Source of the DNA: Escherichia phage 1-6af
Strand: one strand, 5' to 3'
Sequence record: OR983333.1
Length of the DNA stretch: 64,000 nt
Shown: piece after piece, positions 2,208 to 5,184 of the stretch
How positions within the stretch are numbered: position 1 is the first letter of the stretch
Layout of the letters: the number at the start of each line of letters is the position of its first letter
The notes under the pieces: generated by a model
Databases searched by the model: none
The model's input: the letters and a program-made list of their open reading frames with translations, nothing else
Told to the model about the DNA's origin: nothing
Program-made: the position numbers and the translations under genes

Positions 2208-2248
2208 TCGACAAATTAAATTATTAATAGTATAGGAGCTAACATAAC

Positions 2249-3307
2249 ATGGCTAATCCAACTTTATTTGTATCGTATGACCAGAATGGTAAAAAACTTT
2301 CTTTTGCTAACTGGATTTCTGTTCTGTCCCCTCAGGATACCCCGTTCGTATCTATGACCGGTAAAGAGTCTATCAACCAGACTATCTTTAGCTGGCAGAC
2401 CGATGCACTGGCAAGCGTTGACGGTAATAACGCACACGTCGAAGGCTCTCGTGCTGAAGACGGCGAAATGAAACCGACCGTTATCAAATCTAACGTTACT
2501 CAGATTCTGCGTAAGGTTGTTCGTGTTTCTGATACTGCTAACACCACCGCTAACTACGGTCGTGGTCGTGAACTGATGTATCAGCTGGAGAAGAAAGGTA
2601 AAGAGATCAAGCGTGACCTCGAGAAAATCCTTCTGTCCGGTCAGGCTCGTACCGACGTTCTGGCTGACCAGTATCTGACTAACTCTGCAACTGATCCTGC
2701 TGTTGTTGGTCTGAATGACACCCATGCAGCTCGTAAGACTGGTGCATTCCAGTTCCTGTGTGCTCACGGTGGTTTGTCTGGTGGCGTTGTTGACAAGACT
2801 AAGAATGGTCCTGCTGACCCGGATACTGGTGCAGTAACTGTTAAAGTTGCACAGAATGCTTCTAACCCGACCACTAACATTGGTTTTGATGAAGCTGATA
2901 TCTTTGATATGACTCTGCAACTGTATACCGCTGGTTCTGAAGCAGATATCATCATGATTAACCCGGCTCATGCTAAGATCTTCGCTGGTCTGCAAGAAAA
3001 TACTCAGGGTTCACGTAAGCGTATCTTTGAGAACACCAAGCAGTTCATCTACGAAGTTAACAGCATCACTGACCCGCTGGGCCAAAGCTACAAAATCATC
3101 GTTAACCGTTGGATGCCTACCGATGCAGTTTACTTCTTCCGTAGCGCTGACTGGACTCAGATGGTTCTGCGTGCTCCGAAACGTACTGAACTGGCTAAAG
3201 ACGGTTCTTACGAGAAGTGGATGATTGAAATGGAAGTTGGTCTGCGTCACCGCAACCCGTATGCTTCCGGCGTTCTGTTCACTGCTGCGGGAAAGGTGGC
3301 GGCGTAA
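2249..3307 (+). CDS. major capsid protein
   Basis: 352 aa ORF after scaffold; strong RBS (taggag); highly biased codon use; followed by frameshift Ig extension and strong terminator. Confidence 0.7.
   Translation: MANPTLFVSYDQNGKKLSFANWISVLSPQDTPFVSMTGKESINQTIFSWQTDALASVDGNNAHVEGSRAEDGEMKPTVIKSNVTQILRKVVRVSDTANTTANYGRGRELMYQLEKKGKEIKRDLEKILLSGQARTDVLADQYLTNSATDPAVVGLNDTHAARKTGAFQFLCAHGGLSGGVVDKTKNGPADPDTGAVTVKVAQNASNPTTNIGFDEADIFDMTLQLYTAGSEADIIMINPAHAKIFAGLQENTQGSRKRIFENTKQFIYEVNSITDPLGQSYKIIVNRWMPTDAVYFFRSADWTQMVLRAPKRTELAKDGSYEKWMIEMEVGLRHRNPYASGVLFTAAGKVAA
3289..3295 (+). other. -1 programmed ribosomal frameshift slippery heptamer G_GGA_AAG
   Basis: X_XXY_YYZ heptamer in the capsid zero frame, 4 codons before the capsid stop; -1 frame stays open into the Ig-like ORF. 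Confidence 0.55.
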
Positions 3308-3831
3308 CAGTAGACAGTGTGACTGTTAGCCCTGCGTCTTTAGCAAGTCTAGAGACAGGGGCTACTCGGCAGTTCACTGCAAGCGCGGAGAAAAGTGATG
3401 GTTCTACCGAAACAACTGGCTTTACTTGGTCAGTGACAGGAGGTGGTTCTATCACTCAGTCGGGTTTGTATACTGCTCCGAGTGCGTCTCAATCCACTGA
3501 TGTATCCATTACTGCAACTTTAGAAGGTGTTTCTGGTACGGCAACCATTTCCGAAATTGTTGCTCCTGCTCCTACTATTGTAGCTAAGGGTCCAATTACG
3601 GGTAAAACTGGTGGTTCCTCCACTAATTTCACTACCATGTTTACTGTAACTAATTCTATTGCTGATGATTACACACTTGTTGTAACTCCCGCAGAAGCTG
3701 GTACAATAAGTGCTAATAATTCGTTAAAATTAGATGCTGCTGCAAGTGGCGAAGTTACTGTTCAAGCAAGTTTGACAGCCAACCCGTCTATCAATGCAAC
3801 ATGCACTTTTACTGGTGTAACACCTGCTTAA
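3295..3831 (+). CDS. Ig-like (Big_2-type) C-terminal extension of capsid, reached by -1 frameshift (capsid-Ig fusion)
   Basis: -1 frame has no stop from 3295 to 3831; no RBS before the GTG at 3319; Thr/Ser/Gly-rich beta-type domain with Ig-like pattern. Confidence 0.55.
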   Translation, partial: GGGVTVDSVTVSPASLASLETGATRQFTASAEKSDGSTETTGFTWSVTGGGSITQSGLYTAPSASQSTDVSITATLEGVSGTATISEIVAPAPTIVAKGPITGKTGGSSTNFTTMFTVTNSIADDYTLVVTPAEAGTISANNSLKLDAAASGEVTVQASLTANPSINATCTFTGVTPA

Positions 3832-3838
3832 AATCAGA

Positions 3839-3862
3839 CCCTGCCTTCGGGCGGGGTTTTTT
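3839..3862 (+). terminator. rho-independent terminator after capsid module
   Basis: ccctgcc-ttcg-ggcgggg hairpin followed by T6. Confidence 0.75.
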
Positions 3863-3890
3863 CGTTTTAAGACCTATACAAGCCAGTGTG

Positions 3891-3899
3891 TAATGTATA
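3891..3899 (+). promoter_or_regulatory. TAATGTATA promoter-like motif (preceded by TAAGACCTA, 14 nt spacer)
   Basis: Identical bipartite arrangement recurs at 20181-20211; located 34 nt upstream of the next start codon. Confidence 0.5.
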
Positions 3900-3932
3900 T
3901 TCTTTGTCTACATATAACAAGGAGGACAACCT

Positions 3933-4445
3933 ATGGCAATGCCAGATTTCAGAGAAGCTTTTACCTATGATCCAAATACAGGGCATCTTTTCTGGTCTAT
4001 GAGTAACATCTTTAATAAGCAGAAAGGACAACGTGCCGGGTGTATTGGCGACAGAGGTTATCGTAAAGTGACTTTTAAAAAGAAATCATATTTAGAGCAT
4101 AGGGTCATAGCTGAACTCTTTCTTCCTAAGGTAGAAGGGAAGGACTGTGTCAACCATAAGAATGGAATAAAAGACGATAACAGGATTGAGAATCTAGAGT
4201 GGTGTACTCAACAAGAAAATTGTACACATGCTTTTGAAACAGGCCTCTCAACACCTAGGAGTCTTGAGGATAACCCTAATTCCAAACTCACTAAAGAGCA
4301 AGTTCTCTTTTGTTTGGAGAACTACAAACCGAGAGATAGAGAGTTTGGAGCTAGAGCCTTAGCTAGAAAGTTTGGGGTCTCTAAAAGCACAATATCTCTC
4401 ATTACTAAAGGCGTAAACTGGAAGGAGGTTTATTATGATGCCTGA
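3933..4445 (+). CDS. HNH homing endonuclease (HNH_3-like with C-terminal HTH)
   Basis: YDPNTGHLFW...GYRKV...HRVIA...VNHKNG...DNRIENLEW motif pattern; free-standing between structural genes. Confidence 0.8.
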   Translation: MAMPDFREAFTYDPNTGHLFWSMSNIFNKQKGQRAGCIGDRGYRKVTFKKKSYLEHRVIAELFLPKVEGKDCVNHKNGIKDDNRIENLEWCTQQENCTHAFETGLSTPRSLEDNPNSKLTKEQVLFCLENYKPRDREFGARALARKFGVSKSTISLITKGVNWKEVYYDA

Positions 4446-5184
4446 CGTCCAATATCCCATCAATACCTATGGGTGGCTAAAGAAAGCCGTGGCCCTCTGG
4501 GCAGATAGGGACGATGACGAATTTGTTAATCAAATTCCAAACTTTATTAATTTTGCAGAGAAAGAGATTTATCGCAACTTACGTATCCCTCCTCTGGAAA
4601 AGGAAGTGTATCTGAGTATCAAGAATGGTATAGCATTCATCCCACCGGACTACTTGCAAGCTCAATGGATAATGAGAGCTAAAGATGGAGCAATATTCCA
4701 AGTAACTTCCCCAGAAGAGATAAGCTATCGTAAACAGCATGGCACAATTAACCCCTCTCACTGGAATAATCAACCTGTTAATTTTGCTCGTTTCGGAAGT
4801 CGTTTCTTGTTCTATCCACTGATTGATGCTGATACCCCTGTTTACCCTGAAGATGGAAGTCCTGCTATTCCAGCAGAGAACTCTGTAATTCTAAGCTATT
4901 ATGCAGATCCTCCGGAGTTTCACGCAGACGAAGATACTAGTGCAATACTTACGATTGCTCCAGAACTTCTTCTATACTTTACCCTTAGGCATGCATGTCT
5001 TTTTGTTCAGGATGATAACGGTGTTCAAAAATGGTCTGCGTTAGGTAAGGCTATTCTTGATGAGATGGTTGAGCAAGATAAGAAACAGGAGTACTCAGGT
5101 TCTCCTATTGCGATACCCAACAACATGACCAGACTTCAGAGTAGCCTGCCAGATATTTATGGAATACGTACCTCTAGAGTATAA
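4435..5184 (+). CDS. hypothetical virion protein (possible adaptor or tail tubular protein)
   Basis: Position in structural block; overlapping start with upstream gene. Confidence 0.3.
   Translation: MMPDVQYPINTYGWLKKAVALWADRDDDEFVNQIPNFINFAEKEIYRNLRIPPLEKEVYLSIKNGIAFIPPDYLQAQWIMRAKDGAIFQVTSPEEISYRKQHGTINPSHWNNQPVNFARFGSRFLFYPLIDADTPVYPEDGSPAIPAENSVILSYYADPPEFHADEDTSAILTIAPELLLYFTLRHACLFVQDDNGVQKWSALGKAILDEMVEQDKKQEYSGSPIAIPNNMTRLQSSLPDIYGIRTSRV

What the first reader, a model, noticed from the sequence alone, without database searches (positions are those of the whole stretch)
3281..3831. Programmed -1 frameshift at the end of the capsid gene predicted to make a capsid-Ig-like fusion
A perfect X_XXY_YYZ heptamer G_GGA_AAG (3289-3295) sits in the capsid zero frame four codons before the stop. 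The -1 frame is open from there for 179 codons and encodes a Thr/Ser-rich Ig-like (Big_2-type) domain. There is no RBS before the GTG at 3319. A small hairpin ACAGT-gtg-ACTGT lies ~19 nt downstream. Ig-like domains appended to phage structural proteins by frameshifting is an established theme, as with T7 10A/10B.
Basis: partly seen in the sequence, partly recalled or inferred. Interest (0 to 1): 0.55.

Follow-up and report, generated by a model that had tools for sequence, protein, structure and literature searches.

The report
Known capsid frameshift adding Ig domains

Summary
G_GGA_AAG lies at 3289-3295 in the zero frame of the major capsid gene (2249-3307). The -1 frame runs on for 178 codons to a stop at 3829-3831. 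It encodes two tandem Big_2-type Ig-like domains (AlphaFold pLDDT 96.5; best PDB match Leptospira LigA).

- The heptamer is invariant in every Gordonclarkvirinae and Privateervirus relative examined.
- The GTG at 3319 has no Shine-Dalgarno sequence and is a non-start codon (ATA or GTA) in several relatives.
- The Ig domain starts upstream of that GTG, directly after a Gly/Ser linker.
- Salmonella phage 7-11 carries the same kind of extension fused in frame to a second capsid gene copy.

It is already known. The window is a Kuravirus whose 150-nt junction is identical to that of phiEco32. The frameshift at GGGAAAG is annotated in the RefSeq record of phage Paul, which cites phiEco32 (PMID 18294652). 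It is also described for SU10, Privateer and YF01.

- The small hairpin it noted is not conserved.
- A different invariant 7-bp stem (3305-3311/3322-3328) exists, but there is no evidence that it has a function.
- The T7 10B extension is not Ig-like; the T3 extension is.

Interest is low.

The parts
2234..2238 (+). Shine-Dalgarno (AGGAG) of the major capsid gene
   Evidence: Read from the sequence. Anti-SD duplex energy is -6.5 kcal/mol.
2249..3307 (+). Major capsid protein gene, zero frame (352 aa, 38.7 kDa), HK97 fold
   Evidence: Pfam SU10_MCP, E=8.7e-77. PDB 7z45 SU10 major head protein, E=2.5e-235. 100% protein identity to phage FH3 and 99.7% to EcoN5.
3289..3295 (+). Slippery heptamer G_GGA_AAG, site of the -1 shift
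   Evidence: In register. Invariant in all Gordonclarkvirinae and Privateervirus loci examined. The same heptamer is named as the frameshift site in the Paul RefSeq record and in PMC9965538, PMC7881722 and PMC4281155.
3296..3304 (+). Overlap/linker: VAA in the zero frame; Gly-Gly-Gly linker in the -1 frame (together with G3295)
   Evidence: Relatives differ here only by 3-nt indels. The -1 reading stays Gly/Ser-rich: GGG, GSGG, GGS.
3305..3307 (+). Zero-frame TAA stop of the short capsid protein
3295..3831 (+). -1 frame extension: 178 codons plus stop, giving a fusion product of 527 aa and 55.8 kDa
   Evidence: AF2 pLDDT 96.5. dN/dS against relatives is 0.25-0.45. GenBank records annotate it as a separate 170-aa 'Ig domain containing protein' starting at the GTG.
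3304..3558 (+). Ig-like domain 1 (Big_2 type), about residues 4-88 of the extension
   Evidence: Pfam Big_2 over residues 6-83, 18.8 bits, below the gathering score of 22.8. NJ01 and Paul orthologues score above it. The first beta-strand, residues 6-12, starts before the GTG codon at residue 9. Foldseek best match is LigA 8gyr, E=7.7e-11.
3568..3828 (+). Ig-like domain 2 (beta-sandwich), about residues 92-178 of the extension
   Evidence: AF2 secondary structure. Tandem-Ig matches in the PDB.
3305..3328 (+). Invariant 7-bp stem UAACAGU(3305-3311)/ACUGUUA(3322-3328), 9 nt after the heptamer; candidate frameshift stimulator, unproven
   Evidence: Present in the MFE folds of nearly all variants (in SU10 the loop also pairs). 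RNAalifold keeps it, but all 7 pairs are invariant, so there is no covariation. Shuffle z-scores for the downstream 60 nt are about -0.8 to -2.3 in most variants, but +0.11 in EP335 and -4.65 in SU10.
3314..3326 (+).
   Evidence: It exists, but it competes for the same 3' arm as the 7-bp stem. Its 5' arm is not conserved in NJ01, Paul, Bas86 or EP335.
3836..3869 (+). Intrinsic terminator that closes the capsid transcription unit after the extension, not after the zero-frame stop
   Evidence: 10-bp stem with 6 GC pairs and a T-tract. Terminators are annotated at the same place in SU10 and Paul.

Best explanation
Most ribosomes translating the capsid mRNA read GCG GGA AAG GTG GCG GCG TAA and release the 352-aa major capsid protein.

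A minority slip one base backwards on G_GGA_AAG, with tRNA-Gly re-pairing GGA to GGG and tRNA-Lys re-pairing AAG to AAA. These ribosomes continue in the -1 frame through a Gly3 linker and two tandem Big_2-type Ig-like domains to the stop at 3829-3831. The product is a 527-aa (55.8 kDa) capsid-Ig fusion that co-assembles into the prolate head as a minor species.

Shown here: the signal, its register, its conservation, the start-less -1 ORF, the fold of the extension, and the lack of an independent initiation signal.

Taken from the literature: both protein forms were detected for phiEco32 and Privateer.

Inferred:
- Efficiency of a few percent, by analogy with G_GGA_AAG in lambda G/GT. That would give tens of the roughly 715 capsid subunits per head.
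- Display of the Ig domains on the capsid exterior.
- A weak carbohydrate or surface adhesion role.
For: - Register and ORF geometry.
- This is a unique outlier among 39 in-frame heptamers in the window.
- The heptamer is invariant across Kuravirus, Suseptimavirus, Nieuwekanaalvirus and Privateervirus loci, while flanking codons vary and carry only 3-nt indels.
- GTG 3319 is replaced by ATA or GTA in NJ01, KBNP1711, Paul, EP335 and Bas86. In those phages the next start-like codon downstream of the heptamer is an ATG at extension codon 33, inside the domain.
- There is no SD before 3319.
- Gene callers choose five or more different internal starts in homologues.
- Big_2 profile position 2 aligns to extension residue 6-7 in the window, NJ01, Paul and EP335. 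The AF2 first strand covers residues 6-12.
- In other lineages an Ig domain also starts within about 8 residues of the slip site.
- Salmonella phage 7-11 has a second capsid gene with three in-frame Ig-like domains.
- The terminator follows the extension, not the zero-frame stop.
- The extension is under purifying selection in the -1 frame, dN/dS 0.25-0.45.
- The 150-nt junction is identical to that of phiEco32.
- PMC7881722 reports two capsid bands plus MS in Privateer. PMC9965538 and PMC4281155 describe the same site.
- G_GGA_AAG is described as highly shift-prone in E. coli (PMC5009743).
Against: - No protein data exist for this particular phage.
- No convincing stimulatory RNA element was found. 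The 7-bp stem is invariant, so there is no covariation, and the fold z-scores are not significant.
- In SU10 the cryo-EM capsid shows no extra density and no long band (PMC9509320). This is explained by a premature TAG in SU10's -1 frame.
- That SU10 result also shows the extension is dispensable for head assembly.
- The 2014 SU10 MS claim for the long form rests on nearly the same peptide count as the short form.
- I could not read the primary phiEco32 paper.
Confidence: 0.9

Rival explanations
1. The Ig ORF is a separate gene, translated from GTG 3319 as in most GenBank records. It would give a free 170-aa Ig-like decoration protein that binds the capsid non-covalently or has another role.
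For: - This is how phiEco32 gp12, MN05, SU7, FH3 and others are annotated.
- The SU10 cryo-EM paper treats gp10 as a possible separate minor capsid protein.
- GTG is a legal start codon, and the ORF from 3319 is 170 aa.
Against: - There is no SD: -1.7 kcal/mol, equal to background.
- The GTG is ATA or GTA in several relatives whose ORF is intact.
- The domain's first strand and the Big_2 profile begin upstream of the GTG.
- The -1 frame is open back through the heptamer in every relative.
- The Gly/Ser linker is conserved in the -1 frame.
- Phage 7-11 has in-frame fusions.
- The literature reports a fused product.
Confidence: 0.05
2. The extension is a decaying, unexpressed remnant. The heptamer is fortuitous or a relic, and only the short capsid protein is made, as apparently in SU10.
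For: - SU10 has lost the reading frame after 11 codons yet is fully viable with a normal capsid.
- Selection on the extension is more relaxed (dN/dS 0.25-0.45) than on the capsid core (0.08-0.11).
Against: - The 178-codon ORF is intact here and in nearly all relatives, and has grown to 372-545 codons in EP335, Bas86 and Paul.
- dN/dS is well below 1.
- The AF2 model is very confident.
- The heptamer is invariant.
Confidence: 0.03
3. The fusion arises from transcriptional slippage: RNA polymerase adds or drops a base in the GGGAAAG run, rather than the ribosome shifting frame.
For: Both mechanisms would give the same protein. Nothing run here distinguishes them directly.
Against: - The homopolymer runs are only 3 nt long. 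By established knowledge, productive transcriptional slippage in bacteria needs runs of about 7 or more A/T, as reviewed in PMC5009743.
- The motif is a textbook tandem-slippage heptamer in the correct codon register.
Confidence: 0.01

Closest known systems
phiEco32 gp11/gp12 (Kuravirus) major-capsid -1 frameshift at GGGAAAG; also annotated or described in phages Paul, YF01 and SU10, and in Privateer (Privateervirus)
   Same: - Same capsid family (SU10_MCP).
- Same heptamer, and the 150-nt junction is identical to that of phiEco32.
- Orthologous two-domain Ig extension.
- Same terminator position.
   Different: - Nothing differs in the mechanism.
- The second Ig domain carries a few substitutions relative to phiEco32.
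- This phage has an HNH endonuclease gene inserted just downstream, which phiEco32 lacks.
- Paul, YF01, EP335 and Bas86 have longer extensions of 372-545 or more codons.
Phage T3 / T7 gene 10A/10B capsid frameshift
   Same: A -1 frameshift near the 3' end of a podophage major capsid gene yields a minor, C-terminally extended capsid subunit that co-assembles. A terminator follows the extension.
   Different: - The slippery sequence differs.
- The T7 extension is short and not Ig-like; only the T3 extension is Ig-like (PMC5009743).
- Membership in the T7 capsid sequence family was not tested here.
Lambda G/GT tail assembly chaperone frameshift
   Same: - Same heptamer G_GGA_AAG a few codons before the zero-frame stop (my own knowledge: Levin et al. 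1993).
- Efficiency of a few percent (about 3.5%, quoted in PMC9965538).
- No strong stimulatory structure is known.
   Different: - It is a different gene class: a tail chaperone, not a capsid protein.
- The extension is the T domain, not an Ig domain.
- The product is not part of the virion.
Ig-like domains added to phage structural proteins by frameshift (Fraser et al. 2006; Listeria phages A118/A500/PSA, Lactobacillus phage A2)
   Same: - A C-terminal Ig-like (Big_2 or I-set) module is appended to a fraction of a structural protein.
- The same module is in frame in some relatives and out of frame in others (PMC5009743).
   Different: None in principle. This is one more instance of that theme, and one already catalogued.

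Membership tests
Canonical -1 programmed ribosomal frameshift cassette | X_XXY_YYZ slippery heptamer in the zero-frame register | tested here: met
   G_GGA_AAG at 3289-3295; zero-frame codons are GC[G] GGA AAG.
Canonical -1 programmed ribosomal frameshift cassette | A -1 ORF that is open across the site, has no initiation signal of its own, and extends well past the zero-frame stop | tested here: met
   The -1 frame is open from 3229 to 3828, 174 codons past the stop. The only start-like codon is GTG 3319, which has background-level SD energy. It is a unique outlier among 39 heptamers.
Canonical -1 programmed ribosomal frameshift cassette | Phylogenetic conservation of the site and of the trans-frame ORF | tested here: met
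   The heptamer is invariant in 20 loci across 4 genera plus Privateervirus. The -1 ORF is intact in all except SU10.
Canonical -1 programmed ribosomal frameshift cassette | Stimulatory element: a downstream hairpin or pseudoknot 5-9 nt away, or an upstream SD-like sequence | tested here: inconclusive
   An invariant 7-bp stem starts 9 nt downstream, but it shows no covariation and the z-scores are mostly not significant (about -0.8 to -2.3; EP335 +0.11; SU10 -4.65). No upstream SD-like sequence is present. Such an element is not strictly required for G_GGA_AAG.
Canonical -1 programmed ribosomal frameshift cassette | Trans-frame protein product detected | not testable with these tools
   Available only from the literature for relatives: Privateer gel plus MS (PMC7881722); phiEco32 via the Paul RefSeq note citing PMID 18294652.
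Kuravirus (phiEco32-like) capsid gene module | Major capsid protein of the SU10_MCP family within a portal-scaffold-capsid-adaptor gene order | tested here: met
   Pfam PF17236, E=8.7e-77. 97-99% nt identity to Kuravirus genomes. Gene order as in phiEco32, SU10 and Paul.
Big_2 (PF02368) bacterial Ig-like domain | Pfam score above the gathering threshold | tested here: not met
   The window extension scores 18.8 bits against a cutoff of 22.8. Orthologues in NJ01 (28.3) and Paul (23.4) pass; EP335 (22.3) falls just short.
Big_2 (PF02368) bacterial Ig-like domain | Ig-like beta-sandwich fold resembling solved Big_2 domains | tested here: met
   AF2 pLDDT 96.5 with two beta-sandwich domains. The top Foldseek match is the Leptospira LigA tandem Big domains 8gyr, E=7.7e-11. 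Big_2-CBM56 entries 7r3t and 7quz also match.
T7-type 10A/10B capsid frameshift | Homologous capsid protein and homologous extension | not tested
   Only a functional analogy is claimed. The review PMC5009743 states that the T7 extension is not Ig-like.

The most novel reading that the evidence does not exclude
The capsid-Ig junction in prolate (C3) podophages may be an evolving recoding hotspot, and part of it is still unannotated.

- Besides the canonical G_GGA_AAG seen here, Aeromonas Lahexavirus phages (LAh_9) and related metagenomic phages end their capsid gene with CTG AAG GTA AAG NNN TAA.
- In those phages a start-less -1 ORF of 88-169 codons follows, encoding Ig_3/I-set or Big_2 domains. 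This implies -1 shifting on a non-canonical G_GUA_AAG site (single tRNA-Lys slippage), helped in some by a GC hairpin 6 nt downstream.
- In the window itself, the invariant 7-bp stem that begins at the zero-frame stop codon could tune the ratio of the two products.
Probability: 0.35. Interest if true: 0.3.

Novelty: already known. Interest (0 to 1): 0.12.

Why it matters
- Annotation. Most GenBank records of these phages still split the product into 'major head protein' plus a GTG-started 'Ig domain containing protein'. The correct annotation is a joined CDS with ribosomal slippage at GGGAAAG.
- Biology. The fusion puts Ig-like adhesion modules on a fraction of capsid subunits of phages that are being developed for E. 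coli therapy and biocontrol. This may affect adherence to surfaces or mucus, but that is an inference.
- Novelty. No new mechanism or open question is exposed by this window.

Tried and rejected
- Enrichment of the bare heptamer. GGGAAAG is not over-represented: 5 copies against 7.6 expected. Significance rests on register and context, not on motif count.
Rejected: 5 bp, 18-nt spacer, 5' arm not conserved.
- Covariation support for any downstream structure. None was found; all pairs of the conserved stem are invariant and the outer pairs show only one-sided changes. Shuffle z-scores are mostly unremarkable.
- The stem-loop proposed for SU10, which encloses the heptamer (CTGCTGC...GCGGCGG, PMC4281155). 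It folds in the window too (z about -0.9). However, it would already be melted when the ribosome sits on the heptamer, so I do not count it as a stimulator.
- Pfam on the window's extension alone. The score is below the gathering threshold, so structure prediction and orthologues were needed.
- Reading the primary phiEco32 paper by PMID and by DOI. It is not held, so its result is cited second-hand.
- A role of the long form in determining prolate head geometry. Rejected because SU10 lacks the extension yet builds a normal prolate head.
- ARAGORN found no tRNAs in the window.

Full report
**What the window is.** The region 2249-3831 is 97-99% identical in DNA to about 50 Escherichia/Shigella phages of the genus Kuravirus. 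It is 97.5% identical to phiEco32 and 98.9% to phage FH3. ORF 2249-3307 encodes a 352-aa protein that matches Pfam SU10_MCP (E=8.7e-77). It also matches the solved SU10 major head protein 7z45 (E=2.5e-235). Upstream lie the portal, a small ORF and an acidic scaffolding protein, in the same order as in phiEco32, SU10 and Paul.

**Checking the observation.**
- The sequence reads ...GCT GCG GGA AAG GTG GCG GCG TAA. G_GGA_AAG therefore occupies 3289-3295 in exact X_XXY_YYZ register, with the stop at 3305-3307.
- The -1 frame is closed by TGA at 3226 and then stays open to TAA at 3829-3831. That is 178 sense codons from the re-read G at 3295.
- The only ATG/GTG/TTG in that frame before 3420 is GTG 3319.
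- The predicted fusion is 527 aa and 55.8 kDa, against 38.7 kDa for the short form. The junction is FTAAGK|GGGVTVDS.
- GGGAAAG alone is not enriched (5 copies, 7.6 expected), but the arrangement is unique. Among 39 in-frame XXXYYYZ heptamers inside ORFs of at least 100 aa in the window, the -1 ORF after this one is 178 codons. The next longest is 30 and the median is 4.
- Upstream of GTG 3319 the anti-Shine-Dalgarno duplex energy is -1.7 kcal/mol. That is indistinguishable from random positions (median -1.5). ORFs of at least 150 aa have a median of -6.1, and the neighbouring genes score -11 to -12.

**What the extension encodes.** Pfam gives only a sub-threshold Big_2 hit for the window's own sequence (18.8 bits against 22.8, residues 6-83). 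Orthologues in NJ01 and Paul pass the threshold, and EP335 (22.3) falls just short; all have the profile starting at residue 7. I built an AlphaFold2 model from an alignment of 21 homologues. It has mean pLDDT 96.5 and shows two beta-sandwich domains, at about residues 4-88 and 92-178. The best PDB matches are the tandem Big domains of Leptospira LigA (8gyr, E=7.7e-11). Other matches are tandem Ig arrays, including the Ig-like nozzle domains of SU10 itself. The first strand covers residues 6-12 (VDSVTVS). It therefore begins before the Val encoded by GTG 3319, which is residue 9.

**Comparative evidence for frameshifting rather than separate initiation.** I collected 36 related loci from IMG/VR and GenBank.
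- Site conservation. In every Gordonclarkvirinae locus (Kuravirus, Suseptimavirus, Nieuwekanaalvirus) and in Privateervirus, the heptamer GGGAAAG is invariant and in register. The codons around it change.
- Linker. Between the heptamer and the zero-frame stop, relatives differ only by 3-nt indels. The -1 reading is always a Gly/Ser linker: GGG, GSGG, GGS.
- Start codon. The GTG is present only in the phiEco32 clade. It is ATA in NJ01 and GTA in KBNP1711, Paul, EP335 and Bas86. In those phages the first start-like codon downstream of the heptamer is an ATG at extension codon 33, inside the domain.
- Gene calls. Automated gene calls for homologues start at five or more different internal positions.
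- Extension length. It varies from 178 to 372, at least 403 (Bas86, which runs off the fetched stretch) and 545 codons by addition of Ig modules.
- Selection. The extension is under purifying selection in the -1 frame (dN/dS 0.25-0.45). It is much more diverged from NJ01 (dS 1.2) than the capsid core is (dS 0.15). This suggests module exchange at the junction.
- In-frame fusion elsewhere. Salmonella phage 7-11 has two tandem capsid paralogues: a short one, and a 585-aa one with three Ig-like domains fused in frame. This is an independent indication that the Ig modules belong on the capsid protein's C-terminus.
- Transcription unit. The only strong intrinsic terminator lies at 3836-3859, after the extension.

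**RNA elements.**
Its 5' arm is mutated in four lineages.
- The same 3' arm pairs better with 3305-3311, giving a 7-bp stem UAACAGU/ACUGUUA. This stem starts 9 nt after the heptamer, begins with the zero-frame stop codon, and is invariant in all nine distinct Gordonclarkvirinae variants.
- Because that stem never varies, it offers no covariation evidence. Shuffle z-scores for the downstream 60 nt are about -0.8 to -2.3 in most variants, with EP335 at +0.11 and SU10 at -4.65. Its conservation may simply reflect the V-T-V...T-V-S coding and the stop codon.
- I therefore leave the stimulator question open. G_GGA_AAG is reported to be highly shift-prone in E. coli by itself (PMC5009743).

**Mechanism.** Tandem -1 slippage of tRNA-Gly and tRNA-Lys on G_GGA_AAG yields a minor capsid-Gly3-Ig-Ig fusion.
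- Efficiency is inferred, not measured. It is a few percent by analogy with lambda G/GT (about 3.5%) and T3/T7 (about 10%), both quoted in PMC9965538.
- With 715 capsid subunits per SU10 head (PMC9509320), that would mean roughly 25-70 extended subunits per virion.
- Surface display and weak glycan or cell-surface adhesion are inferred from the general literature on phage Ig-like domains. I did not test them.

**Comparison with what is known.** This exact feature is published.
- The SU10 genome paper names the GGGAAAG slippage that fuses CDS9 and CDS10 'as in phage phiEco32' (PMC4281155).
- The Privateer paper shows two capsid bands and MS detection (PMC7881722).
- The YF01 paper describes the short and long isoforms across the Kuravirus-like group. 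It notes that SU10 has a premature TAG in the -1 frame (PMC9965538). I confirmed this: the extension is 11 codons in the SU10 record.
- The window's 150-nt junction is identical to that of phiEco32.
- The Atkins et al. review places such cases in a general class of Ig-like C-terminal extensions made by frameshifting. It points out that the T3 extension is Ig-like but the T7 extension is not.

**Verdict.** Novelty is 'already known'. The practical value is limited to fixing the split annotation that most GenBank records still carry.

The only mildly new points come from relatives, not from this window:
- a candidate unannotated frameshift on a non-canonical G_GUA_AAG site in Lahexavirus-like phages;
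- an A_AAA_AAG variant in one metagenomic contig;
- the invariant stem downstream of the Kuravirus site.

Noticed in passing
window 3933-4445 (+), with 3832-3951 and 4435-5184: An HNH_3 endonuclease gene (Pfam E=6.3e-13) sits between the capsid terminator and the adaptor/gatekeeper gene. Only 10 of 85 matching Kuravirus records carry it; phiEco32, SU10 and Paul lack it. The window still matches phiEco32 up to about 20 nt into the start of phiEco32's adaptor gene. The HNH ORF therefore appears to have taken over that gene's RBS and first codons (MAMPD...). The adaptor gene now restarts at 4435 (MMPDVQ...), overlapping the HNH stop. This looks like a typical sporadic homing-endonuclease insertion.
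   Followed up: partly
L035 (Aeromonas phage LAh_9) about 2400-2690; L013 3900-4190; L010-L012 3900-4430: These capsid genes end CTG AAG GTA AAG NNN TAA. A start-less -1 ORF of 88-169 codons follows, encoding Ig_3/I-set or two Big_2 domains that begin within about 8 residues of the AAG. GenBank calls the LAh_9 ORF a 74-aa 'tail protein'. This is a candidate unannotated -1 frameshift on a non-canonical G_GUA_AAG site. L010-L012 have a GC hairpin (GCGYCC-CUAC-GGGCGU) 6 nt downstream, and a C-to-U change there keeps the pairing.
   Followed up: partly
L015 3921-4052 (IMG/VR metagenomic contig, 125 kb): The capsid gene carries the dnaX-type heptamer A_AAA_AAG two codons before its stop, with a short Pro/Val/Lys-rich -1 ORF of 42 codons.
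   Followed up: no
L023/L027 (Salmonella phage 7-11) and L036 (Cronobacter phage GAP52): Each has two tandem capsid paralogues. The second one in 7-11 is 585 aa, with three Ig-like domains fused in frame. This is a gene-duplication route to short and long capsid forms, as an alternative to frameshifting.
   Followed up: partly
L004 (SU10, KM044272) locus 2541-2590: Relative to all other kuraviruses, the SU10 record has a 1-nt insertion plus substitutions just after the heptamer (GACACTGTCTACTGTTAG). This gives a TAG after 11 -1 codons. The 2014 MS table lists the '9+10' form with 22 peptides against 23 for gp9 alone, so it does not clearly show extension peptides. This agrees with the remark in PMC9965538.
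   Followed up: partly
window 61499-61577 (-): Rfam gives a tRNA match at 29.7 bits, just above the gathering score of 29. ARAGORN reports no tRNA anywhere in the window.
   Followed up: no
window 3295-3828 versus L006 (NJ01): Synonymous divergence of the Ig extension (dS about 1.2) is roughly eight times that of the adjoining capsid core (dS about 0.15) in the same pair of phages. This suggests recombinational replacement of the Ig module at the frameshift junction.
   Followed up: partly
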